Shown here in pieces: positions 3,095-55,978 of a stretch of DNA of 64,000 nucleotides (the first letter of the stretch is position 1; the number at the start of each line of letters is the position of its first letter). This DNA is from Leptolyngbya sp. BL-A-14 (GTDB lineage Bacteria; Cyanobacteriota; Cyanobacteriia; Leptolyngbyales; Leptolyngbyaceae). The stretch lies in NCBI GenBank assembly GCA_041937185.1, contig CP166621.1, positions 2,196,571 through 2,260,570 of the forward strand, read 5' to 3'. The notes under the pieces are model-generated. The model saw only the letters and a program-made list of their open reading frames with translations, ran no database searches and was not told the DNA's origin. Made by a program: the position numbers and the translations under genes.

Positions 3095-4612
3095 ATGCCC
3101 ACCCTAGTTAAATCAGCGCCATTCTACGTGCATCCCATTAACGAAAAACTGGCAACTAAAATACTCTCTTTCGACAAACGGCTCTTTGCATCCAATGGTC
3201 GGTTATGCCTTCCCCATTCATTGAGGAGCTTTATGGTATCCACGCCTTCAAGTAATGATGTGACCGCAGAGACAGCGGAAAATCAGTCTAGCTACGGTTC
3301 GAATGAGTTGGGTTATCAGCAGTTGATTTTGTGTGCTGCGCTGATTGGTATTGCCGGTGGGCTGGTGGCAACCGCTTACTATTACGTGTTAGAAGCTTGT
3401 CTTCATATCACCTGGCATACGCTGCCCGACGTTGTGCTGCCACTCTTTCCTGCCATTCCAGCATGGAACTATGTGTGGATTGCGACGACGATCGGCGGTT
3501 TTTGTGTCGGTCTAACGCTGCGCTTTATGGGGCTACCCGGTGAAGTAGCCATGGTGGTGGACAAAGTGCATGATCCGGGTCGCATTGAAGTAAAGCAAAC
3601 ACCCGCCATGATTGTGGCATCGCTGTTTTCCATTACGGCGGGGGGCAGTGCTGGCCCCGAAGCACCGCTGGTGCAAATTCTGGGCAGCTTTGGGGGCTGG
3701 CTCAGCAGCAAACTGCGGCTCACGTTAGTAAACACTCGCGTGCTGACATTTTGCGGCATGAGTGCAGCGCTGGGTGCCTTTTTTGGCGCACCGTTGGGTG
3801 GTGCTTTGTTTGCCCTGGAACTCCCCCATCGACGCGGGTTGGAATATTACGAAGCATTGATTCCCGCCGTGCTATCCGCCATTCTCAGCTTCTTTGTGTT
3901 TCGGTTTAATACCGGGCTAACGATCGGCGGCATGTACCATTTTGAGGCCATTCCAGAACTGACGCTGATGAGCCTGCTGCAAGGCTTGTTACTTGGTGCA
4001 GCTGGTGCGGGTGTAGCCGTTACGTTTGTGTTGATCTTTCGGCTGATTGGCTCTCTGCTGCATCGGCTGGAGCACCACACCATTTTGCTGGCAACGCTCG
4101 GTGGTCTGACCATTGGGCTGCTGGCGCTGGCAGTGCCCCAAACTCTGTTTTTTGGCGAGAAAGAAATTCAGACGATCGTCGAAACGGGTGCCACGTTAGG
4201 GTTAACGATGTTGCTCGTCATTGGTTTCACCAAAATGCTGGCGATCGGCTTCACATTGCATTCTGGCTTTCGGGGCGGTTTCATCTTTCCCCTGTTTTAT
4301 CTGGGTGCCACCTTTGGCTACGCGATCGCTCTCAGCGTCCCCAATCTTCATCCGACGATCGCCATGGTGTGCATGATGGCAGCCGTGAATGTCGCCATTA
4401 CCAAAACACCCATCAGCAGCACGGTGATTCTGAGCGTGTTGTCCGATACAGCAATGGTGCCTGTGATCTTGATTGCGAGCTTTACCAGCTTTTTGCTCAC
4501 GACGCAGGTCTCGCTGATTGGTACCCAGCGATCACGCACCATTTTTCCGGCTGGACCACTCTTACAAGCAGAGCCCCAGCCTATCCCAATCGAAGTGCCT
4601 GTAAAGGTGTGA
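3095..4612 (+). CDS. CLC family voltage-gated chloride channel / H+-Cl- antiporter
   Basis: 505-aa polytopic protein with CLC signature segments GGSAGPEAP (GxEGP-like selectivity filter) and GFTLHSGFRGGFIFP; true start may be an internal Met. Confidence 0.8.
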   Translation: MPTLVKSAPFYVHPINEKLATKILSFDKRLFASNGRLCLPHSLRSFMVSTPSSNDVTAETAENQSSYGSNELGYQQLILCAALIGIAGGLVATAYYYVLEACLHITWHTLPDVVLPLFPAIPAWNYVWIATTIGGFCVGLTLRFMGLPGEVAMVVDKVHDPGRIEVKQTPAMIVASLFSITAGGSAGPEAPLVQILGSFGGWLSSKLRLTLVNTRVLTFCGMSAALGAFFGAPLGGALFALELPHRRGLEYYEALIPAVLSAILSFFVFRFNTGLTIGGMYHFEAIPELTLMSLLQGLLLGAAGAGVAVTFVLIFRLIGSLLHRLEHHTILLATLGGLTIGLLALAVPQTLFFGEKEIQTIVETGATLGLTMLLVIGFTKMLAIGFTLHSGFRGGFIFPLFYLGATFGYAIALSVPNLHPTIAMVCMMAAVNVAITKTPISSTVILSVLSDTAMVPVILIASFTSFLLTTQVSLIGTQRSRTIFPAGPLLQAEPQPIPIEVPVKV

Positions 4613-4745
4613 GGAGTTGGTAGAGAGAGGTAGAGGGATGAGGGATGAGAAACGGCCAAAGGCTGACCGTTGATAGCGAGGGAGAAGGCAGAAGAAAGGC
4701 TGAAGGCTAAAGGCTGAAGGCTAAAAACCTGACTCCTGATCACTG
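4613..4745. repeat. STRR-like heptamer tandem-repeat cluster between convergent genes
   Basis: GGTAGAG, GGATGAG, GGCTGAA, GGCTAAA and GGCAGAA heptamer runs. Confidence 0.8.
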
Positions 4746-8883: not shown

Positions 8884-9133
8884 GAAACAGAATCCTGGTA
8901 GAGCAGAGAGGAAGGGGCAAGGGAAGTTTTTGGTTGCTAGTTGAGAAAGGGAAGCAGAGAGAGGACGTTTTGAGCTTTGAGTTGAGGCAGTTTTTAGTGG
9001 TTGGTTTTTAGTTTTTAGGACTGGAACAAGCGCTGCTTTTCTCTCCTTCTAACAACTAACAACTAACAACCAAAAACCCTTCTGCCCTCTGCCTCCTGCC
9101 TTCTTCTAGCAACTAGCAACCCAAAACGAACAA
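8884..9133. repeat. composite STRR-like repeat element with conserved AGCGCT core
   Basis: The whole 250-bp spacer is heptamer runs (GTTTTTA, AACAACT, CCTCTGC) around the core GGAACAAGCGCTGCTTTTCTCTCCTTCTAA. Confidence 0.8.
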
Positions 9134-15071: not shown

Positions 15072-15184
15072 GGGTGAGGGATGAGAGAAGAAGGCTAAAG
15101 GATGAAGGCTAAAGGCTAAAAAGCTGACCGCTGACTGCTCCTGAACTCAGAACTCAAAACTCAAAACTCCTCTCCCCTCGCCCT
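15061..15184. repeat. STRR-like heptamer repeat cluster
   Basis: GGATGAG, GGCTAAA, GAACTCA and AAAACTC heptamer runs between ycf19 and accC. Confidence 0.8.
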
Positions 15185-16589: not shown

Positions 16590-16800
16590 TCTGTGGGGCA
16601 CTGGAAGAGGAGAGTGGGGAGTAGGGAGTAGGGAGTAGGGAAGAAATTTGAGTTTTGAATTGTAAGTAGGCTGTGAAGTTCGGGCGTTCGGAGTCAGAAG
16701 ACCTCTGAGTTTGAGACGATTGATCATGCAGGTTTGCCTAACTCTGTTTCCTACTTTTTCCCTTTGCCTTTCCTTCGCAAACAACCAACAACCAACAACT
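16590..16800. repeat. STRR-like heptamer repeat cluster
   Basis: GGGAGTA x4, GAGTTTT, CAACAAC runs. Confidence 0.75.
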
Positions 16801-26569: not shown

Positions 26570-26975
26570 GAGGTGTAACTCTATGAATAAGGTACGTTAG
26601 GGGTACGTCAAGGGAAGACGCGATCGGCCTTCTGGCGTCAGTGCTTCTAATCACCAGGAGGCGAGAGAGTCAGAAATCCTCTACAGTGGATTCTACATCG
26701 CAATTTACTGTAACGCTGTATTCCGTAGCATTGGGTTTAAAGTCAGTTGTAATCGCGATCGCTCAATGCAAGACGCTTTCTCTGGGTGGTAAATACCTTA
26801 AACGTCCTTCCAGACAGCGAATACAGCCGATCACTGGTTGACAATCTCCCGGTTTCACACTAGGAATGACATCTCAGGAATCTCTCACTCAACCCTGGTA
26901 GTCACTGCAATATTGGTTATAAGAGAGATTAGAGAATCCGATTGCCGCGATATCCTTTTCAACGTTAACGATCCC

Positions 26976-29705
26976 ATGTCAAAGCTTGTCATCGTCGAGT
27001 CACCCACCAAAGCGCGCACCATTCGCAATTACCTTCCTGAAGGGTATCGGGTAGAGGCGTCAATGGGTCATGTACGTGATTTACCCCAATCCGCCAGTGA
27101 AATTCCGGCAGGCGTGAAGGGAGAAAAGTGGGCACCGCTTGGCGTTAACGTGGAGGCAAACTTCGAGCCCCTGTATGTCGTACCGCAAGACAAGAAAAAG
27201 ATTGTTAAAGAACTGAAAGAAGCGCTAAAGGCAGCAGACGAACTCATTCTGGCGACTGACGAAGACCGGGAAGGAGAAAGCATTAGCTGGCACCTGCTGC
27301 AATTGCTCAAGCCCAATGTGCCGATCAAGCGCATGGTCTTCCACGAAATTACCGAAGATGCGATTCGTGAAGCCATCCGTAACTGCCGCGATGTCGATGA
27401 ACGGCTGGTACGCGCGCAGGAAACCCGCCGGATTCTCGATCGCTTGGTGGGCTACACCCTCTCGCCCCTGCTGTGGAAAAAAATTGCGTTTGGGCTTTCG
27501 GCTGGGCGGGTGCAGTCTGTATCCGTTCGCCTGCTGGTTAGACGGGAACGCCAGAGACGAGCCTTCCGTCAGGGCAGCTATTGGGATTTGAAGGCAACGT
27601 TGGAAGCTGGAGAGCAGGAGAAGCAGTCGTTTGAAGCGCGACTCGTGACGCTGGCAGGCGTTCGGGTTGCCAACGGCAGTGACTTTGATGAAGCAACGGG
27701 ACAGGTGATTGCCGGACGGAATGTGATGCTGCTGAATGAGGCAGAAGCACGGACGTTACAGGACCGGATTCGCGATCGCCCCTGGACCGTCACCAACCTG
27801 GAAGAGCGTCCCGTTACTCGCAAACCTTCGCCACCGTTTACAACCTCCACCCTGCAACAGGAGGCAAACCGTAAGCTAGGGCTTTCTGCCCGCGACACAA
27901 TGCGGACGGCCCAGAGCCTCTACGAGCAGGGTTACATTACCTACATGCGAACGGACTCCGTCAGCCTCTCGCAACAGGCAATTACCGCTGCTCGCGATTG
28001 TGTGCAATCCATGTACGGTGCCGAGTACCTCAGCCCAGAGCCCCGTCGCTACTCCACCAAAAGTAAAGGTGCGCAAGAGGCCCACGAAGCCATTCGTCCG
28101 TCTGGCAGCAGTTTCCGTACTCCACAGCAAACTGGGCTCAAAGACCGAGAATTTCGTCTTTACGACTTGATCTGGAAGCGTACAGTCGCCACCCAAATGG
28201 CTGAAGCTCGGCAAACCCACGTGACGGTACAAATCCAGGTTGAGGATGCGGGGTTTCGTGCCAGTGGTAAGCGCATTGACTTTCCAGGGTTCTTCCGCGC
28301 CTATGTCGAAGGGTCGGACGATCCGAATGCCGCGATCGAAGATCAGGAGATCATCCTTCCCCCCTTGCAAGTCGGCACTACACCTACCTGCACTGATCTG
28401 GACGCTATCGGCCACGAAACCCAGCCACCCGCCCGTTTTACCGAAGCTTCTCTAGTTAAAACGCTGGAAAGCGAAGGCATTGGTCGCCCCAGTACCTACG
28501 CCAGCATTATTGGCACCATCATCGATCGGGGCTACGCCAATATGGTCGGCAATGCCCTGGTACCGACCTTTACCGCCTTTGCGGTCACCGCCTTACTCGA
28601 AAAATACTTCCCCGATCTGGTCGATACAGGATTTACGGCCCGCATGGAACATGCGCTAGACGAGATCTCCACGGGCGCGGTTGATTGGCTCCCCTACCTG
28701 AAAGAGTTCTATCTGGGCGAAACCGGACTTGAAACCCAGGTGAAAGACCGCGAGAGCGAAATCGACCCGACAGAGGCACGGACGGTCGATTTAGAAAATT
28801 TGGCCGCGAAAGTGCGTATTGGTCGCTTTGGAGCCTACATCGAAGCTGAAAATGGCGATGGGAGTGTCAAAGCCTCCATTCCCAAAGATTTGACCCCGGC
28901 GGATCTCGATCCCGCTCAGGTGGAAGTACTGCTACGCCAAAAAACCGAAGGTCCCGATAAGGTCGGTCTACACCCCGAAACCGGCGAACCGATTTATCTC
29001 AAAATCGGTGCGTACGGTCCCTACGTGCAGCTTGGCGACGAGACAGAAGCCAACCCTAAGCCCAAACGTGCCTCTTTGCCCAAAGGCGTCACACCTGACA
29101 CGCTAACGCTCGAACAAGCGGTTGGCTTACTCAAGTTACCCCGGCTGCTAGGGACGCATCCTGAGTCAGGCGGCAAAATTCAGGCAAGCCTGGGTCGTTT
29201 TGGTCCCTACGTCGTGTTGGATCAGGGCAAAGGCGTGAAGGAATATCGCTCCATCAAAGCAGGCGATGATGTGTTGACGATTACCCTCGATCGCGCCCTC
29301 GAAATGCTGGCAGAACCCAAAGCGAGTCGCGGCAAACGGGGTGCCGCCAAACCCCTCCGCGAACTGGGTGCCCATCCTGAAGACGGCGAACCTGTCAATA
29401 TTTACGATGGGCCTTACGGTCCTTACATCAAGCACGGCAAGGTGAATGCCTCGCTGCCCGAAGGCGAAACCGTGGAAGCGATCGCTATGACTACCGCAGT
29501 GGAAGCCCTCAACGCCAAGGCGGGCACAAAGAAAGGAGGACGATCGCGCAAAGCCAGCACCGACGCCACTGAAACCACCAAAGCCACCAAAGCCAGCGGC
29601 ACCGCCAAAAAGACCGCCGCCAAAACAACGGCTGGCACCAAAAAGACCACCGCGAAGAAAACGACGACTAAAAAATCCACCACCAAAAAAGCTTCAACGA
29701 CCTGA
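26976..29705 (+). CDS. topA: DNA topoisomerase I
   Basis: Toprim N-terminus ([14 protein letters not shown]), active-site region, multiple zinc-ribbon-like repeats; lysine/threonine-rich C-terminal tail; start moved to internal ATG 26976. Confidence 0.93.
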
Positions 29706-29789: not shown

Positions 29790-31394
29790 TTAGCATCCAG
29801 CCTCAATCTGCCTCACAGCCGTTAGCGCTGAGTAACTTACCCCTGCCGTTCCCTCACCGGGATGGGTTGAGTCTCCTACCAGCCAAAGGTTACGAATGGG
29901 TGTCCGGTTCGCAAAGCCAAAGGGACCAAACGTAGGTACCCGTTGACCAATGCCACCAACGATGCCCCGATCACGCCCCGTAAAGTGTGCAAACGTGCGA
30001 GGAGTCGCCGCTTCCACCAACAAAATCGTCTCGTCATTCAGGGTGAAGAATTGAGATAACCGGGCGATCGCTTCATCGGTATACCGCTGTTTGAGCAAGG
30101 CAAAAGAGTTAAGAGTTAAGAGTTTTGAGTTTTGAGTTTCAAGTTTAATCTTTTGCCTTCTGCCTTCTGCCTTCTGCCTTCTGCCTTCTACTTCCCCCTT
30201 TTCCCACCAAAGCCCCACATCCGTAAACGACGACGCAATAATCGTCGCCTTCCCCTCCGGTGCCCGACCATCACCCGGACGACTGACCGACACGAAGAGC
30301 GAGTTGTTTTCGCCGATCGGGCCCTCGTAGTCGTATAAAAATTGCAGATGAGGCGGACAGTCTTCAGGAAGCGCACGTTCATCTACGCCCAGATACACCA
30401 CAAACGCACCAGAACTCGGCGGCAGTTTCTCCACCCGTCGTTGGTAGCCGTTGGGAGCCTGGTCGCCCAGCAGTTGCATCAAATTCTGCACCGTTACATT
30501 TGCCACCACGTGGTCAACGGGTTCCGTCCAGCTTTCACCTGTTTTCTGGTTGCGGATCGTTACTCCCGTTGTTCGCCCTTTCTCAGTGTGAATCGCTTTC
30601 ACCGTGTGGCGCATGAGGAGCTTGCCACCATCTCGTTCTAAGGCAGCAACGAGGCGATCGCTCAACGCCTGCATGCTCCCGTGAAGGTGAAACAATCCCT
30701 GTGGCTCCTGAGAAACCCCTAAAGCTGTGGCTGCGTAGAGCAACGCCGTTTCTTCGGCGTCGACCTGAGAATAAAGCTTGAGTTGCAGATCAAGGAAGGT
30801 TCGTAGCCGTTGGTTGTCTGCCAAACCGTAGCCGCGAAGGGCATCTCCCACTGTCGAAAACGTATGCGGCAGCGTCAAAAGCGTATCGGGACGGACAGCC
30901 TTGGTTAATTGCCACAAATCCCACCCGTTGCGTGGCGGTAAGACTGGATCACGAGACTGAAACGCCCAGCTATGGCGAAACAGATCGGACAACAGTTGCC
31001 AGAAGGGTTCGCTGCCTGGAAATTGCCGTTGACGCTCAGCCTGCCATCGCTGCGGGTCGCGCCACACGTTAATGGGTGTGGTTTCTCCAGGCAAATAAAC
31101 GGCACAAGCAGGGTCGCAGTGCGTTGCAGCAGGCAGTTCAATCTCTAGCTCCGAGAAAATGCGGTGATGAATGCCGCCGGGTTCTAACCCTGCAACCTGA
31201 GTCGCACCCACATCAAAGGTAAACCCCTGCCGTTTAAAGGTCGAAGCACAACCACCCGGCACTAGCGCTTGATCCAGCATCAGCACTGAGTAGCCCCGAT
31301 GGGCCAGCAAAGCGCCTGCGGTCAGCCCGCCAATGCCTGCACCAATCACAACCACACGGGGAGAATGAGCACGATCGCCCTGTTTACCTGGCAT
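29790..31394 (-). CDS. phytoene desaturase (CrtI) family FAD-dependent oxidoreductase
   Basis: VVVIGAGIGGLTAGALLAHRGYSVLMLD dinucleotide-binding motif, GGCASTFKRQGFTFDVGA; contains an in-frame STRR-like insertion. Confidence 0.75.
   Translation of the reverse strand: MPGKQGDRAHSPRVVVIGAGIGGLTAGALLAHRGYSVLMLDQALVPGGCASTFKRQGFTFDVGATQVAGLEPGGIHHRIFSELEIELPAATHCDPACAVYLPGETTPINVWRDPQRWQAERQRQFPGSEPFWQLLSDLFRHSWAFQSRDPVLPPRNGWDLWQLTKAVRPDTLLTLPHTFSTVGDALRGYGLADNQRLRTFLDLQLKLYSQVDAEETALLYAATALGVSQEPQGLFHLHGSMQALSDRLVAALERDGGKLLMRHTVKAIHTEKGRTTGVTIRNQKTGESWTEPVDHVVANVTVQNLMQLLGDQAPNGYQRRVEKLPPSSGAFVVYLGVDERALPEDCPPHLQFLYDYEGPIGENNSLFVSVSRPGDGRAPEGKATIIASSFTDVGLWWEKGEVEGRRQKAEGRRQKIKLETQNSKLLTLNSFALLKQRYTDEAIARLSQFFTLNDETILLVEAATPRTFAHFTGRDRGIVGGIGQRVPTFGPFGFANRTPIRNLWLVGDSTHPGEGTAGVSYSALTAVRQIEAGC
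30098..30195. repeat. STRR-like heptamer array inside CDS (in-frame)
   Basis: AAGAGTT, GAGTTTT and CCTTCTG x5 runs; translated as [28 protein letters not shown] within the oxidoreductase. Confidence 0.8.
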
Positions 31395-31596: not shown

Positions 31597-32943
31597 GTGA
31601 AGCTACCCATCGAAGGGCACTGCATGACTTCAACCCTCATCAAATCCACGGCTCATAAACTAAATGCGCCAACACTGCATCGGCTCCCTAACGGCTTGAC
31701 GATCGTCGCCGAGCAGATGCCCGTCGAAGCAGTCAATCTAGATATCTGGCTTAATGTCGGTTCTGCGGTTGAAGCAGACAACATTAACGGGATGGCGCAC
31801 TTCCTAGAGCACATGATCTTCAAAGGCACTGCGCAACTCCAGAGCGGCGAATTTGAGCGCCGGATTGAGCAACGAGGAGCGGTAACCAACGCGGCCACCA
31901 GTCAGGATTACACTCACTACTACATCACGACAGCACCGAAGGATTTTGCAGCGCTAGCCCCCTTACAACTGGATGTTTTGCTCAATGCGAGCATTCCTGA
32001 TGATGGGTTTGAACGCGAACGTCAGGTGGTTTTAGAAGAAATTCGGCGATCGCAGGATAACCCTCGTCGTCGCACCTTTCAGCATGCCACTGAGTTAACG
32101 TTTGATCGACTTCCCTATCGCCGTCAGGTGTTAGGTCCCACCAACGTTATCGAGCAGCTCACGGCTCAACAAATGCGGGATTTTCACCAGCATTGGTATC
32201 AGCCAACTGCGATGACAGCCGTTGCCGTTGGTAATTTACCTGTTGATGAATTGATCCGCATTGTTGAAGAGGGGTTTGAGCAAACTGTTAGCCGTCAGTG
32301 GCCAAGGGGCACTCAATTGCCCGCACCCCACAACCCACAACCCACACCTACACCCCACACCCCACACCCTGAGTCCCCCTTTCAGCACATTGTGCGCCGT
32401 GAATTGGTTGATGCAAGCCTTCAGCAAGCACGACTGGTGATGATCTGGCGCGTGCCAGGGTTGAATGATTTGCAGCAGACTTATGTCCTGGATGTCCTGG
32501 CTTCTGTATTAAGTCACGGTCGCGCGACTCGTCTGGTGCAAGATTTGCGAGAACAACGGGGACTCGTATCGAGCATTGCTGCCAGTAACATCACCTACCG
32601 TCATCAGGGTGCCTTTTACATTTCAGCGCAGTTGCCTGTAGAAAATCTTGATCGAGTAGAGGCGGCGATCGTCCAGCACCTTCGCACACTACAAACAGAG
32701 TTGATTAGCGACGCAGAAATCGCCCGCATTCGGACTCGTGTGGCCAACCATTTCGTCTTTGGCAGCGAAACGCCCAGCGATCGAGCGGGTCTCTACGGCT
32801 ACTACCAAACTCTGGTGGGTGACGTCTCAGCAGCGCTTGACTATCCGAAGCTGATCCAGGCACTGGATGCCGAAGCGGTCAGGACAGCCGTGCAGACCTA
32901 TCTTTCACCCGAAGCCTATGCGGTGGTTACGATTAAGCCGTGA
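31597..32943 (+). CDS. M16 family zinc metallopeptidase (pitrilysin-like processing protease)
   Basis: Inverted zinc-binding motif HFLEHMIFKGT (HxxEH); 448 aa; internal P/H/T-rich segment encoded by CCCCACA/CACAACC repeats. Confidence 0.85.
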   Translation: MKLPIEGHCMTSTLIKSTAHKLNAPTLHRLPNGLTIVAEQMPVEAVNLDIWLNVGSAVEADNINGMAHFLEHMIFKGTAQLQSGEFERRIEQRGAVTNAATSQDYTHYYITTAPKDFAALAPLQLDVLLNASIPDDGFERERQVVLEEIRRSQDNPRRRTFQHATELTFDRLPYRRQVLGPTNVIEQLTAQQMRDFHQHWYQPTAMTAVAVGNLPVDELIRIVEEGFEQTVSRQWPRGTQLPAPHNPQPTPTPHTPHPESPFQHIVRRELVDASLQQARLVMIWRVPGLNDLQQTYVLDVLASVLSHGRATRLVQDLREQRGLVSSIAASNITYRHQGAFYISAQLPVENLDRVEAAIVQHLRTLQTELISDAEIARIRTRVANHFVFGSETPSDRAGLYGYYQTLVGDVSAALDYPKLIQALDAEAVRTAVQTYLSPEAYAVVTIKP

Positions 32944-47368: not shown

Positions 47369-47477
47369 GGAGAGGGATAAAGGATAAAGGATGAAGGATA
47401 AAAAGCTGATCGCTGACTTTTCTACTCCCTACTCCTTACTCCCTACTCCCTGCCCTCTGCCCTCTGCCTTCTCTCCC
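47369..47477. repeat. STRR-like heptamer repeat cluster
   Basis: GGATAAA/GGATGAA runs, CTCCCTA x3, CCCTCTG x3. Confidence 0.8.
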
Positions 47478-48896: not shown

Positions 48897-49115
48897 GGGA
48901 AGTCTCCTTGGTGGTGGTGGAAGGCAGGAGGCAGAAGGCAGGAGGCAGAAGGCAGAGGGCAGAAGGCAGGAGGTTTTTGGGTTGTTAGCGGTTAGTGGTT
49001 AGAAGGAGAGAAAATGCAGCGCTTGTTCTAGCTCAAAACTCAAAACCAACCACTCAAAGCTCAAAACTCTCTAGCGAAGCGGCACGAAGTGCTACTCAAA
49101 ACTCTCTTTCGCTCT
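48897..49115. repeat. composite STRR-like repeat element with conserved AGCGCT core (reverse orientation)
   Basis: GGCAGAA/GGCAGGA runs, GTTAGTG runs, core TTAGAAGGAGAGAAAATGCAGCGCTTGTTCT, AAAACTC runs. Confidence 0.8.
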
Positions 49116-51478: not shown

Positions 51479-52783
51479 TTAGCTGTGCATAATCTCCATC
51501 AAGCAGTCGGCAATCCTTTTGGCGGCTCCGGGTGTGCCCATGCGACGATGACCGTTTTCGGCGATCGTTTGTAGCGCATCGGGATTTTGCAACAGCGATT
51601 GGATCACAGCCGCCACACGATCGGGTTCCTTCACCAACAGAACGGAGGCACCTAATAAACGAGTTTGTGCTTCAGCAAAACGAGGCGTAAACTGCGGACC
51701 TTTGCCTGGAAGGATGATCGCAGGTTTACCCAAGCCGACAAACTGTTCCGTTGCGGTGCCTGCCATCGCGATCGCTACATCGGCTCGATGCAAACACTCT
51801 GCAAACCGTCGTTGCGCCAACACCAGCGTCGATTTGCGATCGCCCAAGCCCACCGTGTAGGAATCTTCCGTCAACTGCTGCCAGCGATACGCCATCAATG
51901 CCTTGTGCAGCAAGTCTACATCCAGTCCGGGCGCGATCGCGGCTAAGAGCGTGAGCGGTCGTGACATCTGGGCAATCATCCCATTCACCGCTTGCAAAAT
52001 CGTTTCCCAATTGGCGTAAGCCTCCGGTGGACGGGAACCGGGAATGAGAGCGATTGTTAAGGCTAAAGGCTGAAGGCTGAAGGCTAAATCTTGACTTTTA
52101 TCCTTTATCCCTAAGCCTTTATCCTTCTCTTCCCACTCCAGCCCATCCATCATTGGATTTCCCAAATCAAACGCTGGAATGTTTCGCCGTCGAAGGCTCG
52201 TTGCCGTGATGGTGTCTCTAGGGAACACCGCTTTGCAGTGTAGATGGCTCATCAGCCACCGCTCCCACGGAAGGTAAATACACCCCGTCCAGCGCTCAAG
52301 GCGATCGTCCCACCAGGAGTCACGCGGCAACCAGCCCCCCTCATCGCGCAGATAGTATTCTGACTTCGCCGTACCCACAAACGCGTAGGGAAGCCCACTG
52401 AGACGGGCGAAGAGGAGGGGGACGATATCGCCAACCGCGAGGATGAGGGAGTGGGGAGTGGGGAATGGGGAGTGGGGAGCGGCGGTTTCCTTTGCCCAGG
52501 CTTTGATGGCGCGGAGTTGTGCCAGCGTGAGTTGAAGTAACCCACCTCGAATGTCGCGCGCAAGCTGCCGCCCATCCTGATAGATGAAACCACCAGACGG
52601 CATGGTCTTGACGGAGCCAATGAGGGAAATGCCATTGTCGATATAGGCATGACCTTCACCCACGATCGGCAAAGCGGCAAGTTCTGGTGGATTGGGCTGT
52701 TGCTGAAGTTCACGCAAGATGCGGAGGGCGATCGCATCTTCACCATGACCGTTGCTAAGACAGAGTACGCGCATGAGCAGCAA
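51479..52783 (-). CDS. lipid-A-disaccharide synthase-related protein (LpxB-like glycosyltransferase)
   Basis: 434 aa; N-terminal LSNGHGEDAIA motif of the LpxB-related family; carries two in-frame heptamer-repeat insertions. Confidence 0.65.
   Translation of the reverse strand: MLLMRVLCLSNGHGEDAIALRILRELQQQPNPPELAALPIVGEGHAYIDNGISLIGSVKTMPSGGFIYQDGRQLARDIRGGLLQLTLAQLRAIKAWAKETAAPHSPFPTPHSLILAVGDIVPLLFARLSGLPYAFVGTAKSEYYLRDEGGWLPRDSWWDDRLERWTGCIYLPWERWLMSHLHCKAVFPRDTITATSLRRRNIPAFDLGNPMMDGLEWEEKDKGLGIKDKSQDLAFSLQPLALTIALIPGSRPPEAYANWETILQAVNGMIAQMSRPLTLLAAIAPGLDVDLLHKALMAYRWQQLTEDSYTVGLGDRKSTLVLAQRRFAECLHRADVAIAMAGTATEQFVGLGKPAIILPGKGPQFTPRFAEAQTRLLGASVLLVKEPDRVAAVIQSLLQNPDALQTIAENGHRRMGTPGAAKRIADCLMEIMHS
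52056..52137. repeat. STRR-like heptamer array inside CDS (in-frame)
   Basis: GGCTAAA, GGCTGAA x2, GGATAAA-type runs; translated as EWEEKDKGLGIKDKSQDLAFSLQPLA inside the LpxB-like ORF. Confidence 0.8.
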
Positions 52784-53483: not shown

Positions 53484-53782
53484 GAAAAATAGTTTTGAGT
53501 TTTGAGTTTTGAGTTTAGTCAGTTTTAAAGCCTTCGGCATGGCTTCGCTAGAGGGGTTGGTTTTCGTTTTTAGCTGGAACCAGCGCTACCTTTTCTCTCC
53601 TTCTAAGCACTTTTCTTGAATGCCCTCTCTTGTATGCCTGAAAGGCTTTAGGGCTATACCACTAACGACCAAAAACCCTTCTGCCTTCTGCCTTCTGCCT
53701 TCTGCCTTCTGCCTTCTGCCTTCTGCCTTCTGCTTTCTGCCTTCTGCTTTCTGCCTTCTGCTTTCTGCCTTCTCCCCCATCC
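53484..53782. repeat. composite STRR-like repeat element with AGCGCT core plus a TTCTGCC array of about 15 copies
   Basis: GAGTTTT x4; core GGAACCAGCGCTACCTTTTCTCTCCTTCTAA; (CCTTCTG)n/(CTTTCTG)n array from 53677 to 53782. Confidence 0.85.
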
Positions 53783-55978
53783 CTACGTAATCGCCTCTGA
53801 CTGATCGGCTTCCCGCCCTGTGCTGTCTCCTGCTGTGCCTAAAACAGACGTTAAGTGTGCTGTGACCTGGCTGTAGCGACGGGTAATCAAGAGTGAAGAG
53901 TGGCACTCTACCGCAAGTTGATCGGCATAAAACCCAAGGGTTTGACGTTCTAAACCCCATTCTCGACTGGCTCCTGCGATCGTCAGGTCTACGGTCGCCG
54001 ACGCTTTGACCACGGCTTCAAGCGGGTTACTGGACTCTACTTGAGGTGTATGAATCCGATCGCGCACTGAGGCAGGTAACTGTTCCATCAGCGTCCGAAA
54101 TTCGTATGTGTGAGCGTTGACTTGCTGATTTTGAGTGACGCTCAGAATGGTCAGCGTAGCCTCTGGGGAATTTACCAAAATGCGAAGGGCAATTTCCAGT
54201 CCAAGATCGTTGTGGCTGTTGGCAACATAGGGCACTAGCAGATTTTGGAGCTTTCCTGGCTGACGATCAACAAAGACTGCAACATCTGTACGTGCTGTGC
54301 TGAGAATTTGCCCCACGCGACCGCCCAGGCGATTGCGACTAAAAGCTGGGCGATGCCATCCCAACAGGACTAGATCAACCCGATCGACCTCGGCAACCCG
54401 AACGGTCTCTTGTGCCACATCCGTCGCAACTCGAATAATGGGGCGCACCACTGAACGAACTTGTGCGGGCTCCAGGCTGGCAACGAGTTCTGTCATCCGA
54501 CGGGTTCGCTCGGCAATGAGCCGTTCTGCTTCGGCAGGGGTACTGCTAAACGCATAGTCCTCATCGAGTTGGATCAGGCTGAGGGGGTAAATGGCAGCAG
54601 AGGTCATGATGGGAGATTCCAGGTCGCTGCCCAGCGCGATCGCCACCGCCAGTTGAATGAGACCCTTCTGGCTGGCAGGGTTTGCGATGGGAACCAGAAT
54701 CCGGTAGTCCGGTTCAGTTTCGTTGACGATCGGCTCCACCACATCCTGGCGAATCAGTCGTTTGGGATAGACCCATTCCAGCAGCGGCGAGGTCATAAAG
54801 GTCGTCACCAACGCCATGATGACCAGCATTGTAAAGAGCAACGGCGAGATTACGTGCAGGCTTAACCCAATGTTCAATACAATCAGTTCTGTTAGGCCAC
54901 GGGTATTCATCAGCCAACCCAAGGCTGCGGCTTCTCGGGGCTCGATTTTAGAAACCCTGGCGGCATAATAAGTGCCAAAATACTTGCCCACGATCGCCAC
55001 AGCAACCACTAGGCCACACAGCAACCACAAAAAGGGACTGTTAAGCAACCCGATTTGAGTGCGTAAGCCGCTATAGGCAAAGAAAATGGGCAGTAAAAAA
55101 GTCAGCACAAAGTCTTCTGTTTTTTGCGCCAGTTCTCGCGTTAACCCGGCATGCTTGGGCATCACTGCACCAATCAAAAAGGCACCAAAAATCAGGTGAA
55201 TGCCAATTAACTCAGTAATCAGCGCTGAGACGACGACCCCAATGTAAATCACAGCCAGTACAAACTGACTTAAACGCCCGCTGCGATTGTAATACGTAGC
55301 AAACGTCTTCAAAAAACGGCGACCTACAGTCACCATAAAAGCGATGTAGAGAATAGATAACAGCACAGTTGGAATCGCACCCGCCATGCTGTTCGTACGG
55401 GTCACTGCGATCGCCAACGCGAGTAAACACCATGCTGTCACGTCATCGACGGCCGCGCAGGTCAGTGCCATCGTCCCCAACCGTGTGCTTTGAAGGTTGT
55501 TTTCTGTAATAATGCGCGCTAAAACGGGGAACGCCGTGATGGACATTGCAGCCCCCAAAAACAGCGCAAAGGCCGTAAACGAAACGCTGCCGCTTGACAC
55601 CAATGGATAGAGCAATAGAGACAACACCGTCCCCAGCGCAAAGGGCACCAAAATGCTGACATGCGAGACTAAAACAGCCACGTCAAGCTGACTTTTCAGA
55701 TATTTAGGGTCCAGCTCAAGCCCGATCAAAAACATGAAAAAGATCAGCCCTATCTGAGAAAGAACATTCAGATAGGGAATTGTTTCGGGTGGAAAAAGGC
55801 CAGTCGCTACAACTGGCGCAAGCAAGCCCAGTAAAGAGGGGCCAAGCATCACCCCGGCGACAATTTCACCAATGACTAGGGGTTGCTTAATTCGACGGAA
55901 CCCCAAACCAACCAACCGGGAAAGCCCGATGACAACGACAATTTCGATGAGAACCTGAACAACGATTTCGAGTTTCAT
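53783..55978 (-). CDS. CPA2-family cation/proton antiporter with C-terminal regulatory (Usp-like) region
   Basis: 731 aa; N-terminal roughly 400-aa Na+/H+ exchanger-type polytopic domain ([15 protein letters not shown]), C-terminal soluble tandem domains. Confidence 0.85.

What the first reader, a model, noticed from the sequence alone, without database searches (positions are those of the whole stretch)
52056..52480. Two separate in-frame repeat insertions in the LpxB-related gene
Within the 434-aa ORF, a heptamer block of about 80 bp (GGCTAAA/GGCTGAA/GGATAAA types, 52056..52137) is translated as EWEEKDKGLGIKDKSQDLAFSLQPLA. A second block (GGGGAGT x4, 52441..52480) is translated as PHSPFPTPHS. 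Both preserve the frame. The same heptamers seen in spacers have colonised this coding region twice. That points to an active, frame-constrained repeat-spreading process, or to a tolerated pseudogenisation in progress.
Basis: seen in the sequence. Interest (0 to 1): 0.55.

Follow-up and report, generated by a model that had tools for sequence, protein, structure and literature searches.

The report
Heptamer repeats inside an intact enzyme gene
Two stretches of the 7-base repeats that litter this cyanobacterial genome sit in frame inside a working sugar-transferase-like gene, in two floppy surface segments that tolerate them; this is an ordinary kind of event, with the odd twist that the repeat DNA is better conserved than silent sites of the gene.

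Summary
The gene (51479..52774, minus strand, 431 aa) is an intact TIGR03492 "lipid-A-disaccharide synthase-related" protein, identical to one from a Leptolyngbya sp. BL-A-14 MAG. It carries two in-frame heptamer blocks that short orthologs lack.

Block 1 is not one tandem run. It is an inverted pair, (AAGGCTR)x4, an 8-nt loop, then (TTTATCC)x4. It belongs to the same dispersed module family as three intergenic copies in the window. Block 2 is a (GGGGAGT)x4.7 array, C-rich in the mRNA.

In an AlphaFold model both map to coil. Block 2 lies in a helix-to-strand loop. Block 1 lies in the low-confidence linker between the two GT-B domains.

Across 120 homologs, nearly all length variation falls at these two sites, with different heptamers in different lineages. 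None of the 88 genomic loci checked is frameshifted. Pseudogenisation is rejected.

The block-1 module is old, shared across a Stenomitos/Tildeniella clade. Its arms vary less than four-fold silent sites, without codon periodicity. Two 97%-identical relatives differ only by three CCCCACT units, which shows recent frame-preserving slippage.

Verdict: a new instance of known cyanobacterial heptamer repeats. Interest is modest.

The parts
51479..52774 (-). Intact gene for a TIGR03492 'lipid-A-disaccharide synthase-related' protein, 431 aa, GT-B fold
   Evidence: NCBIfam TIGR03492 scores 478 bits against a cut-off of 219, covering profile 1-395/396. It is 100% identical to P0001, a MAG Leptolyngbya sp. 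BL-A-14 protein. The AF2 model has pLDDT 87.9, and the best PDB matches are UDP-GlcNAc 2-epimerases and MurG.
52059..52126 (.). Block 1: bipartite inverted heptamer module (two 30-nt arms and an 8-nt loop). It encodes the extra linker residues EEKDKGLGIKDKSQDLAFSLQPLA, aa 215-238 (52061..52132)
   Evidence: Inverted repeat I1 is 80% complementary. The mRNA-sense hairpin folds at -24.9 kcal/mol, z -3.47, with 0 of 200 shuffles as good. It is absent from short orthologs. pLDDT is below 50 at aa 218-235.
52059..52088 (+). Arm A: (AAGGCTR)x4. In gene sense it reads TTTAGCC/TTCAGCC and encodes LAFSLQPLA
   Evidence: TRF finds 4.3 copies. The junction with the following AAA..TGAC is shared with intergenic copies at 4710, 15105 and 47387.
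52097..52126 (+). Arm B: (TTTATCC)x4. In gene sense it reads AAGGATA/AAGGCTT/AGGGATA and encodes KDKGLGIKDK
   Evidence: TRF finds 4.3 copies. It is the most conserved part of the module among orthologs, with mean pairwise identity 0.844 against 0.570 at core four-fold sites. The unit variant AAGGCTT removes an in-frame TAA.
52447..52479 (+). Block 2: (GGGGAGT)x4.7 array. It is C-rich (CCCCACT) in the mRNA, encodes PHSPFPTPHS (aa 100-109), and forms a G-quadruplex-type motif on the template strand
   Evidence: TRF reports 92% matches, and the translation is confirmed. The G4 regex hit is at 52447-52470. In the AF2 model the residues are coil between helix 79-98 and strand 109-115. In relatives this site carries CCCCACT or CCCCACA arrays of 2 to more than 10 units.
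4696..4733 (+). Intergenic sister module: (AAGGCTR)x4 + AAAAACCTGAC, between convergent ORFs
15091..15169 (+). Intergenic sister module: (AAGGMTR)x4 + AAAAAGCTGACCGCTGAC + (AACTCAA)x3.7, between convergent ORFs
47375..47472 (+). Intergenic sister module: (GGATAAA)x4 + AAAAAGCTGATCGCTGAC + CTACTCC/CTGCCCT arrays, between convergent ORFs
16609..16641 (+). Intergenic array of the block-2 unit family (GGGGAGT/GGGAGTA)

Best explanation
Both blocks are heptanucleotide tandem-repeat modules of the kind that is abundant between genes in filamentous cyanobacteria. Here they are embedded in frame in two disordered, structurally permissive segments of an intact GT-B-fold protein of family TIGR03492.

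Block 1 lies in the linker between the N- and C-terminal Rossmann-like domains. It is a bipartite module: a G/purine-rich heptamer array, a short core, then a roughly complementary C/pyrimidine-rich array. It belongs to the same dispersed family as three intergenic copies in this window. Block 2 lies in a helix-to-strand surface loop. It is the C-rich half of a similar module.

Shown:
- The modules were already present in the common ancestor of a Stenomitos/Tildeniella/Leptolyngbya BL-A-14 clade.
- Array lengths still change by whole units.
- Across the family only these two sites, plus a minor third, vary in length.

Inferred:
- Arrays arise and change length by replication slippage and small nested insertions anywhere in the genome.
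- Inside genes, selection removes every variant that shifts the frame, creates a stop or disturbs the fold. Survivors therefore pile up in loops, in multiples of three bases, with unit variants that kill in-frame TAA/TAG.
- The encoded peptides (K/D/G-rich, then L/A/S/P-rich, and P/H/S/T-rich) act as neutral flexible spacers.
- The repeat arms diverge more slowly than silent sites. Most likely this is because repeat units are continually homogenised against each other or against other genomic copies.
For: Gene integrity:
- The ORF is open and matches TIGR03492 over its full length.
- All invariant columns of 120 homologs are kept.
- There are no frameshifts between anchors in the 88 genomic loci checked.

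Insertions:
- Short orthologs lack both blocks.
- Length SD is 11.0 residues at site 1 and 11.2 at site 2, against 0.2-0.6 in three of the four core segments and 3.2 in the one holding a minor third variable site.
- The inserts consist of heptamer arrays that differ by lineage.

Structure:
- The AF2 model has pLDDT 87.9 and pTM 0.87. Both sites are coil. Residues 218-235 have pLDDT below 50.
- The GT-B fold is confirmed by Foldseek.

Same family as the spacers:
- (AAGGMTR)4 + AAA..TGAY occurs 4 times in the window with 0 expected.
- Unit counts are far above chance.

Age:
- The site-2 insert is 72-92% identical in DNA to the window's in orthologs whose core four-fold sites are only 42-61% identical.

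Ongoing slippage:
- L091 and L092 are 97.1% identical and differ by one indel of exactly 3 x CCCCACT.

Stop avoidance:
- The codon that a perfect AAGGATA array would make TAA is TTA in all orthologs.
- The codon that a perfect TTAGCCT array would make TAG is CAG, TCT, AGT, AAG or GAG. It is the most variable codon of the arm.

Generality:
- An M16 peptidase gene and a flavin amine-oxidase-like gene in the same window also carry in-frame heptamer arrays at weakly aligned linker regions.

Literature:
- Heptamers are the commonest long SSR class in many bacteria, and cyanobacteria rank among the richest (Mrazek 2007, as summarised in PMC4679880).
- 32% of GGGGA(C/T)T arrays in Nostoc PCC 7120 are intragenic (PMC4692102).
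Against: - A purely neutral-spacer view does not predict the conservation seen. Insert sites vary at 47% of columns against 83% for core four-fold sites (p = 1.4e-7, 8 orthologs), or 65% against 86% (p = 8.5e-4, 10 orthologs). The codon-position profile is flat. The loop evolves at the neutral rate while the arms do not. Homogenisation is my inference and was not shown.
- The hairpin is kept in 85.8% of pair cells over 10 orthologs, which could instead reflect selection on structure.
- Why exactly these two sites recur could reflect target preference rather than tolerance. This was not separable here.
- No transcript or peptide data were available, so translation of the inserts is inferred from ORF integrity only.
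Confidence: 0.72

Rival explanations
1. The block-1 module is a selected nucleic-acid element that happens to be translated. It could be an mRNA or DNA hairpin, or an array of heptamer binding sites, placed at the domain boundary. Possible roles are slowing ribosomes between the two domains, marking an RNA processing site, or binding a heptamer-recognising factor.
For: - The arms are conserved above silent sites with no codon periodicity, while the loop is neutral.
- The hairpin has z -3.47 in the window and z between -1.1 and -4.9 in the nine clade relatives folded. Two more distant inserts give -0.35 and +0.50.
- 85.8% of pair cells are kept across 10 orthologs. In L083 and L086 both arms switched together to GGGATGA/TCATCCC units.
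- Its position is exactly at the interdomain linker.
- A preprint reports regulatory effects of heptamer arrays upstream of recF/recO in Nostoc and proposes an unknown binding protein (10.1101/2022.06.06.494920).
Against: - Covariation is weak: score 0.144 against 0.117, reached by 15 of 500 shuffles, and most pairs never vary.
- The structure tested was derived from the window sequence itself.
- Many lineages have no module or quite different ones at the same site, and short orthologs do without.
- L088 replaced the module entirely at 84% core identity to L087.
- There is no Rfam family and no terminator- or promoter-like site.
Confidence: 0.15
2. The arrays grew in place from ancestral codons by slippage. 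No module was inserted or copied from elsewhere, and the resemblance to intergenic modules is convergence on slippage-prone units.
For: - Short orthologs have GAAGGCGAAGTCAATCAATCC at site 2. This already contains GAAGGC and a AAGTCAA stretch that resembles the module's loop (AAAGTCAAGAT).
- Conserved flanks are G-rich on the 5' side (GGGCTGGAGTGGGA) and C-rich on the 3' side.
- Unit turnover (CCCCACT versus CCCCACA) and a 3-unit step show local slippage.
Against: - The genic copy shares with three intergenic copies the unit family, the copy number (4) and the junction AAA..(C)TGAY.
- Relatives carry nested non-repeat insertions inside arrays (L081/L084/L085 and L001), which slippage alone does not make.
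Confidence: 0.2
3. The arrays make the gene a contingency (phase-variable) locus. Gain or loss of one or two 7-nt units switches the protein off and on.
For: - The unit length is not a multiple of three.
- Block 2 is a near-perfect array early in the gene at aa 100.
- Two truncated 117-aa forms exist in one metagenome.
Against: - None of the 88 genomic loci first checked is frameshifted.
- The one recent length change seen is a frame-preserving 3-unit step.
- The truncated forms are 1-nt indels, one of them upstream of the array. They sit on contigs whose genes are generally fragmented, so assembly error is likely.
- The arrays are short and imperfect.
Confidence: 0.04
4. Tolerated pseudogenisation in progress, or an assembly artefact of a MAG.
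For: The source is a MAG. The inserts are low-complexity sequence.
Against: - The ORF is intact, the family match is full length, and all invariant residues are kept.
- Core codon positions vary at 0.20/0.11/0.74, which indicates strong purifying selection.
- Homologous inserts are present in more than 10 independent assemblies, including isolates such as Stenomitos frigidus ULC18.
Confidence: 0.02

Closest known systems
Cyanobacterial heptanucleotide tandem repeats (STRR-type long simple sequence repeats)
   Same: The units are 7 nt in short tandem arrays. Many unit families are dispersed through the genome and are mostly intergenic. Heptamers are the most abundant long-SSR class (Mrazek 2007 as summarised in PMC4679880; Calothrix PCC 7601 repeats cited in PMC4692102). 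The window has 30 period-7 arrays.
   Different: The units here (AAGGCTR, GGATAAA, GGGGAGT) are not the three Calothrix STRR units as I recall them; that comparison rests on memory and was not checked. The copies studied are inside a conserved enzyme gene and are arranged as an inverted pair.
G-quadruplex-forming GGGAATC / GGGGA(C/T)T heptamer repeats of Xanthomonas and Nostoc (Rehm et al. 2015, PMC4692102)
   Same: - Block 2 has five G3-4 tracts with 3-nt loops and about 4 units, the preferred number in that study.
- The G-rich strand is the non-coding strand, as they report for intragenic cases.
- They found 32% of Nostoc arrays to be intragenic.
- They describe paired arrays in convergent orientation in Xanthomonas, which is the polarity seen here.
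   Different: The unit is GGGGAGT/GGGGAAT, not GGGGAYT. G4 formation was not tested. Block 1 has only GG runs and cannot form such a G4. They reported few paired arrays in Nostoc.
TAACTGA heptamer repeats within ORFs (MacGregor 2015, PMC4679880)
   Same: Heptamer arrays are translated in all three phases as a 7-residue peptide repeat. The authors argue that most genic insertions are deleterious and that tolerated ones persist.
   Different: Those cases are mostly in hypothetical proteins or at protein ends. Here the arrays are internal to a conserved enzyme at defined structural sites, with ortholog and structure evidence.
Small dispersed repeats (SDR) nested in heptamer arrays of Nostoc (Elhai et al. 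2008, Genome Res 18:1484; cited in PMC3116915; content recalled from memory)
   Same: Relatives carry extra non-repeat pieces nested inside the arrays. L081/L084/L085 have a 21-nt piece at site 2. L001 has a longer piece at site 1 that holds a CCTCG-TTCGG-CGAGG mini-hairpin.
   Different: The paper was not available. The nested pieces have no copy in the window. Identity with any SDR family is untested.
REP/REPIN-type dispersed hairpin elements (Bertels & Rainey 2011, PMC3116915)
   Same: These are short dispersed elements with inverted-repeat architecture found between genes, often at 3' ends. The three intergenic sister modules here lie between convergent ORFs.
   Different: The arms here are built of heptamer arrays. 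No RAYT-type transposase was linked, and one copy lies in a coding region. Membership was not tested.

Membership tests
TIGR03492 (lipid-A-disaccharide synthase-related protein) | Whole-protein HMM score above the curated cut-off, full-length match | tested here: met
   478.3 bits against a cut-off of 219.2. Residues 4-428 match profile positions 1-395 of 396.
LpxB proper (lipid-A-disaccharide synthase) | Match to an LpxB family model | tested here: not met
   NCBIfam returns only TIGR03492. Pfam returns only a sub-threshold Glyco_trans_1_2 hit. The best structural matches are UDP-GlcNAc 2-epimerases and MurG. The gene is LpxB-related by name only.
GT-B fold | Two Rossmann-like alpha/beta domains joined by a linker, with structural similarity to solved GT-B proteins | tested here: met
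   The AF2 model has pLDDT 87.9 and alternating strand/helix elements in two halves. Foldseek gives E values from 2e-12 down, probability 1.00, to 1f6d, 1v4v, 7d1i and 3s2u.
Heptanucleotide tandem repeats (STRR-type SSR) | 7-nt unit repeated head to tail at least 3 times | tested here: met
   TRF finds arrays at 52059-52088 (4.3 copies), 52097-52126 (4.3 copies) and 52447-52479 (4.7 copies).
Heptanucleotide tandem repeats (STRR-type SSR) | The same unit families are dispersed at several loci, mostly intergenic | tested here: met
   The window has 30 period-7 arrays, most between ORFs. AAGGCTR arrays lie at 4696 and 15091, GGATAAA at 47375 and GGGGAGT-like at 16609.
Heptanucleotide tandem repeats (STRR-type SSR) | Length changes by whole units (slippage) | tested here: met
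   L091 and L092 differ by exactly 3 units at 97.1% identity.
G4-forming GGGGA(C/T)T repeats (Rehm 2015) | At least four G3+ tracts separated by 1-7 nt | tested here: met
   GGGAGTGGGGAGTGGGGAATGGGG at 52447-52470 on the + strand, which is the template strand of the gene.
G4-forming GGGGA(C/T)T repeats (Rehm 2015) | Unit consensus GGGGAYT | tested here: not met
   The units are GGGGAGT and GGGGAAT.
G4-forming GGGGA(C/T)T repeats (Rehm 2015) | Quadruplex formation in vitro (CD, melting) | not testable with these tools
   This needs oligonucleotide biophysics.
Contingency (phase-variable) locus | Out-of-frame unit-number variants among close relatives or within populations | tested here: not met
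   None of the 88 genomic loci first checked is frameshifted. The only recent change seen is in frame. The truncated forms are 1-nt indels in a fragmented assembly.
MITE | Terminal inverted repeats plus a target-site duplication | tested here: inconclusive
   Inverted arms are present. No direct repeat is visible at the flanks on reading the sequence. After long residence any duplication could be erased.
SDR elements (Elhai 2008) | Sequence or structure match to SDR1-8 | not testable with these tools
   The paper and sequences are not held.
Pseudogene | Frameshift, premature stop or loss of conserved residues | tested here: not met
Described structured RNA (Rfam 15) | Match at the gathering score | tested here: not met
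   No match in the window. The only sub-threshold hit is a chance MIR529 match with E 0.34.

The most novel reading that the evidence does not exclude
The bipartite heptamer modules are not passive slippage debris. They are a dispersed family with a fixed polarity, G-rich array on the 5' side and C-rich array on the 3' side on either strand. The count is 9 of 9 in the window and 20 to 1 in 88 other cyanobacterial loci, where the single exception is AT-only and four of the 20 are the homologous genic inserts themselves. The family is actively maintained at the nucleotide level even inside a coding sequence.

That would imply one of two things. One is a sequence-specific function: a heptamer-binding factor, or an RNA/DNA hairpin acting at the domain boundary of the mRNA. 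The other is a dedicated writing or repair mechanism, for example templated extension of the two 3' ends at a break, which would produce exactly this polarity.
Probability: 0.15. Interest if true: 0.7.

Novelty: new member of a known kind. Interest (0 to 1): 0.36.

Why it matters
As it stands, this is a clean, well-documented example of how a genome-wide repeat process meets protein structure. Heptamer arrays survive in genes only where the fold has disordered spacers, only in multiples of three bases, and only with unit variants that remove stop codons.

It is useful for annotation. Such inserts should not be read as pseudogenes or misassemblies.

It also gives two natural permissive sites in TIGR03492 proteins. 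The two unexplained features are arms conserved above silent sites and the strict G-rich to C-rich polarity of paired arrays. If they reflect a maintenance mechanism or a function, they would open the long-unanswered question of what cyanobacterial heptamer repeats are for.

Tried and rejected
- My first two translations used off-frame coordinates. They were redone in frame.
- A first consensus fold used sequences to which I had appended the window's TTAACA flank. I discard it and repeated the test with real sequences.
- The Elhai 2008 paper could not be read under three identifiers, so the SDR comparison rests on memory.
- The nested pieces seen in relatives have no copy in the window.
- Two mis-specified junction patterns found nothing. 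The corrected pattern worked.
- There is no Rfam family and no promoter- or terminator-like site in the gene.
- Sequence search of the PDB gives no close relative.
- The truncated cluster members P0124 and P0127 looked like slippage frameshifts but are 1-nt indels. They lie on contigs with generally fragmented genes from one sample, so they are not usable.
- Covariation support for the hairpin is weak and I do not rely on it.
- An intein, intron or mobile-gene reading was not pursued. The inserts are 33 and 68 nt of simple repeats with no ORF or catalytic RNA features.
Full report
**1. What is there**

The region lies in an ORF on the minus strand, 51479..52783. All homologs begin MRVLCLSNGHGE, so the start is the ATG at 52774 and the protein is 431 aa. 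It matches NCBIfam TIGR03492, 'lipid-A-disaccharide synthase-related protein', at 478 bits against a cut-off of 219. The match covers profile positions 1-395 of 396 but spans 425 residues, so about 30 residues are extra. No LpxB model is hit, and Pfam gives only a sub-threshold glycosyltransferase match. The protein is 100% identical to one from a MAG named Leptolyngbya sp. BL-A-14. The window has 61 copies of GCGATCGC against 1.1 expected, the cyanobacterial HIP1 signature.

**2. The observation**

EWEEKDKGLGIKDKSQDLAFSLQPLA is aa 213-238 (52061..52138). PHSPFPTPHS is aa 100-109 (52448..52477). TRF finds period-7 arrays at 52059-52088, 52097-52126 and 52447-52479. The units are far above chance.

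Block 1 is an inverted repeat with arms 52059-52088 (AAGGCTR x4) and 52097-52126 (TTTATCC x4, the complement of GGATAAA). The arms are 30 nt and 80% complementary, with an 8-nt loop. As mRNA it folds into one long imperfect hairpin of -24.9 kcal/mol, z -3.47, and none of 200 shuffles folds as well.

**3. Are these insertions?**

Yes. Orthologs of 403-405 aa read WAKEDGLILAVGD and EWSGSETFDGLTIAL at the two places. In 120 homologs of at least 59% identity, the two sites vary widely in length. The segment between W93 and L110 ranges from 7 to 51 residues (SD 11.0). The segment between D210 and L239 ranges from 12 to 82 residues (SD 11.2). Three of the four core segments have SD 0.2-0.6. The fourth has SD 3.2 because it holds a minor third variable site near residue 305.

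At the DNA level the inserts of many lineages are heptamer arrays of different unit families. Examples are CCCCACT, CCCCACA, GGGGATG, TTCAAAA, GGCAACA, GGGATGA/TCATCCC and GGAGAAGGT/TCCTCAT. They are usually arranged as a G- or purine-rich array, a short spacer, then a C- or pyrimidine-rich array.

**4. Where they sit in the protein**

An AlphaFold2 model built on the 120-sequence alignment has mean pLDDT 87.9 and pTM 0.87. Foldseek against the PDB returns UDP-GlcNAc 2-epimerases, MurG and other GT-B enzymes at E values from 2e-12 down. Sequence search of the PDB finds nothing close.

Block 2 (aa 100-109) is coil between helix 79-98 and strand 109-115, with block-mean pLDDT 65-78. Block 1 (aa 213-238) is coil between the last element of the N-domain and strand 239-244, the first strand of the C-domain. 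Residues 218-235 are the only segment with pLDDT below 50.

**5. Not a pseudogene**

The ORF is open, and the window protein keeps every invariant column of the 120-sequence alignment. In the 88 genomic loci checked, all conserved anchors lie in one frame. Among eight close orthologs the core varies at 20%, 11% and 74% of first, second and third codon positions, the signature of purifying selection.

**6. Relation to the spacers**

The window holds 30 period-7 arrays, most between ORFs. The genic module shares more than its units with intergenic ones. Four units of AAGGMTR followed by AAA..(C)TGAY occur at 4710, 15105, 47387 and 52073, with none expected by chance. The three intergenic copies each lie between convergent ORFs.

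**7. Age and dynamics**

The site-2 module is shared by descent with orthologs from Stenomitos, Tildeniella and allied MAGs. In these orthologs core DNA is 80-88% identical to the window. A recognisable form also occurs in a lineage at 73%. So it is not a recent arrival in this genome.

It is nonetheless dynamic:
- L083 and L086 replaced units in both arms (GGGATGA with TCATCCC).
- L081, L084 and L085 gained a 21-nt non-repeat piece inside one arm.
- L088 carries an 80-residue composite, while its 84%-identical relative L087 keeps the simple module.

The clearest recent event is at site 1. L091 and L092 are 97.1% identical over the gene and differ by a single indel of 21 nt, exactly three CCCCACT units, 2 against 5. 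That is whole-unit slippage in the one step size that keeps the frame.

**8. Selection filter visible in the sequence**

A perfect AAGGATA array read in frame would give TAA at its fifth codon. Every ortholog has TTA there, via the unit variant AAGGCTT or AAGGATT. A perfect TTAGCCT array would give TAG at the third unit. That codon is CAG, TCT, AGT, AAG or GAG in different orthologs and is the most variable codon of the arm.

**9. The unexpected part**

The arms of the module are better conserved than silent sites of the same gene.
- DNA identity of the insert to the window's is 0.72-0.92, while four-fold third positions of the core are 0.42-0.61 identical.
- In a gapless, codon-anchored alignment of eight orthologs, 47% of insert columns vary against 83% of core four-fold sites (Fisher p = 1.4e-7).
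- The codon-position profile of the insert is flat at 0.50/0.36/0.55.
- Adding the two orthologs with replaced arms gives 65% against 86% (p = 8.5e-4).
- Mean pairwise identity is 0.844 for the purine arm, 0.692 for the pyrimidine arm, 0.544 for the loop and 0.570 for core four-fold sites.
- Identical-codon use among conserved residues is 0.815 in site 2 against 0.627 in the core.

These comparisons are not phylogenetically independent, but the direction is consistent. The pattern fits either homogenisation of repeat units or selection on the nucleic acid. The hairpin is kept in 85.8% of pair cells across ten orthologs. Compensatory change is weak, with a covariation score of 0.144 against 0.117 that 15 of 500 shuffles reach, and the tested structure came from the window sequence. 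I therefore treat structural selection as a minority rival.

**10. Polarity**

In the window all nine clusters of paired arrays run G-rich then C-rich, which reads the same on both strands. In 88 other loci (532 kb) adjacent arrays of opposite skew run G-rich to C-rich 20 times and the reverse once, and that one is AT-only. Four of the 20 are the homologous genic inserts, so they are not all independent.

Rehm et al. described 'convergent' paired GGGAATC arrays in Xanthomonas, which is the same polarity (PMC4692102). A palindrome-like element keeps its polarity in either orientation. The rule therefore fits a common origin or a common mechanism, and I cannot tell which.

**11. Block 2 as a G-quadruplex motif**

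The plus strand reads GGGAGTGGGGAGTGGGGAATGGGG, four G3-4 tracts with 3-nt loops. It is the template strand, so the mRNA is C-rich. The window has 8 such motifs against 1.26 expected. The four that lie in credible genes all have the G-rich strand as template. That matches the strand bias reported for Nostoc and Xanthomonas. Formation of a quadruplex was not tested.

**12. Generality in this window**

An M16 peptidase gene (31597..32943) carries CCCACAC x7 at 32320-32369, read as PAPHNPQPTPTPHTPHP. It falls in the gap-rich stretch between the two halves of its alignment to solved homologs. A flavin amine-oxidase-like gene (29790..31394, minus strand) carries GAAGGCA x5 followed by AACTCAA-type units at 30104-30189, read as [28 protein letters not shown]. 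This lies between two aligned blocks. The process is therefore not special to the LpxB-related gene.

**13. Comparison with what is known**

Heptamer arrays are a known hallmark of filamentous cyanobacteria. Heptamers are the commonest long SSR class in many bacteria, and about a third of one Nostoc family is intragenic. Translated TAACTGA arrays have been noted. Small elements nested in heptamer arrays were described by Elhai et al. 2008; that paper was unavailable here and is cited from memory and from PMC3116915.

What this case adds:
- Structural mapping to two permissive sites.
- Family-wide recurrence at those sites.
- The stop-avoiding unit variants.
- A direct 3-unit step.
- The conservation excess of the arms.

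I file it as a new member of a known kind.

**14. Verdict**

Interest is modest at 0.36. The most novel reading not excluded is that these polar modules are actively maintained or functional nucleic-acid elements, with a probability of about 0.15.

Noticed in passing
window 32320-32369 (gene 31597..32943, +): An M16 peptidase gene carries an in-frame CCCACAC x7 array, read as PAPHNPQPTPTPHTPHP. It falls in the gap-rich stretch between the two halves of its alignment to solved M16 peptidases. It also forms two G4-type motifs on the template strand.
   Followed up: partly
window 30104-30189 (gene 29790..31394, -): A flavin amine-oxidase / carotenoid-desaturase-like gene carries an in-frame bipartite heptamer module. 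It is GAAGGCA x5 then AACTCAA/AACTCTT units, read as [28 protein letters not shown].
   Followed up: partly
window, all period-7 array clusters; loci L001-L088: Paired heptamer arrays always run G-rich (5') to C-rich (3') on either strand. The count is 9 of 9 clusters in the window and 20 to 1 in 532 kb of other cyanobacterial loci, where the exception is AT-only. No mechanism is established.
   Followed up: partly
window 9018-9050, 53573-53605 and 49003-49031 (reverse complement): A ~32-nt core, CTGGAACAAGCGCTGCTTTTCTCTCCTTCT, is present three times. Each copy is flanked by G/T-rich heptamers on one side and CTAACAA/CCTTCTG heptamers on the other. This is a second dispersed module family.
   Followed up: no
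window 53677-53773: The longest array in the window is CCTTCTG x13.9. It lies just upstream of a 731-aa membrane-protein ORF (53783..55978, -). It creates spurious repeat-encoded ORFs on both strands, such as [14 protein letters not shown].
   Followed up: no
L081/L084/L085 site 2; L001 site 1: Relatives carry short non-repeat pieces nested inside the heptamer arrays. At site 2 it is a 21-nt piece, ACCYCGCARRGCGAARG... At site 1 of L001 it is a longer piece holding the mini-hairpin CCTCG-TTCGG-CGAGG. They are reminiscent of very small mobile elements, and none has a copy in the window.
   Followed up: partly
L042, L044, L052, L057 (about 4300-4540, just after the gene's stop): In four Nostocales-type loci, including Calothrix parasitica, the region right after the TIGR03492 gene holds a bipartite module. 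It has a central stem-loop GGGAGCAAGATGCTCCC between GGTAAT/GGGAAT-type and TAACTCC arrays.
   Followed up: no
L089, L090 (JGI sample 3300041964): Two contigs carry this gene broken by 1-nt indels, one in the CCC run at the start of the site-1 array and one upstream of it. Neighbouring genes are also fragmented, so sequencing error is likely, though real decay is not excluded.
   Followed up: partly
window, whole: GCGATCGC (HIP1) occurs 61 times against 1.1 expected. Four copies lie inside the studied gene.
   Followed up: no
window 29575-29690 (C-terminus of ORF 26838..29705, +): Period-9 and period-15 repeats rich in CCACCAAAG sit at the C-terminal end of a 955-aa ORF. This is a codon-multiple repeat class distinct from the heptamers.
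   Followed up: no
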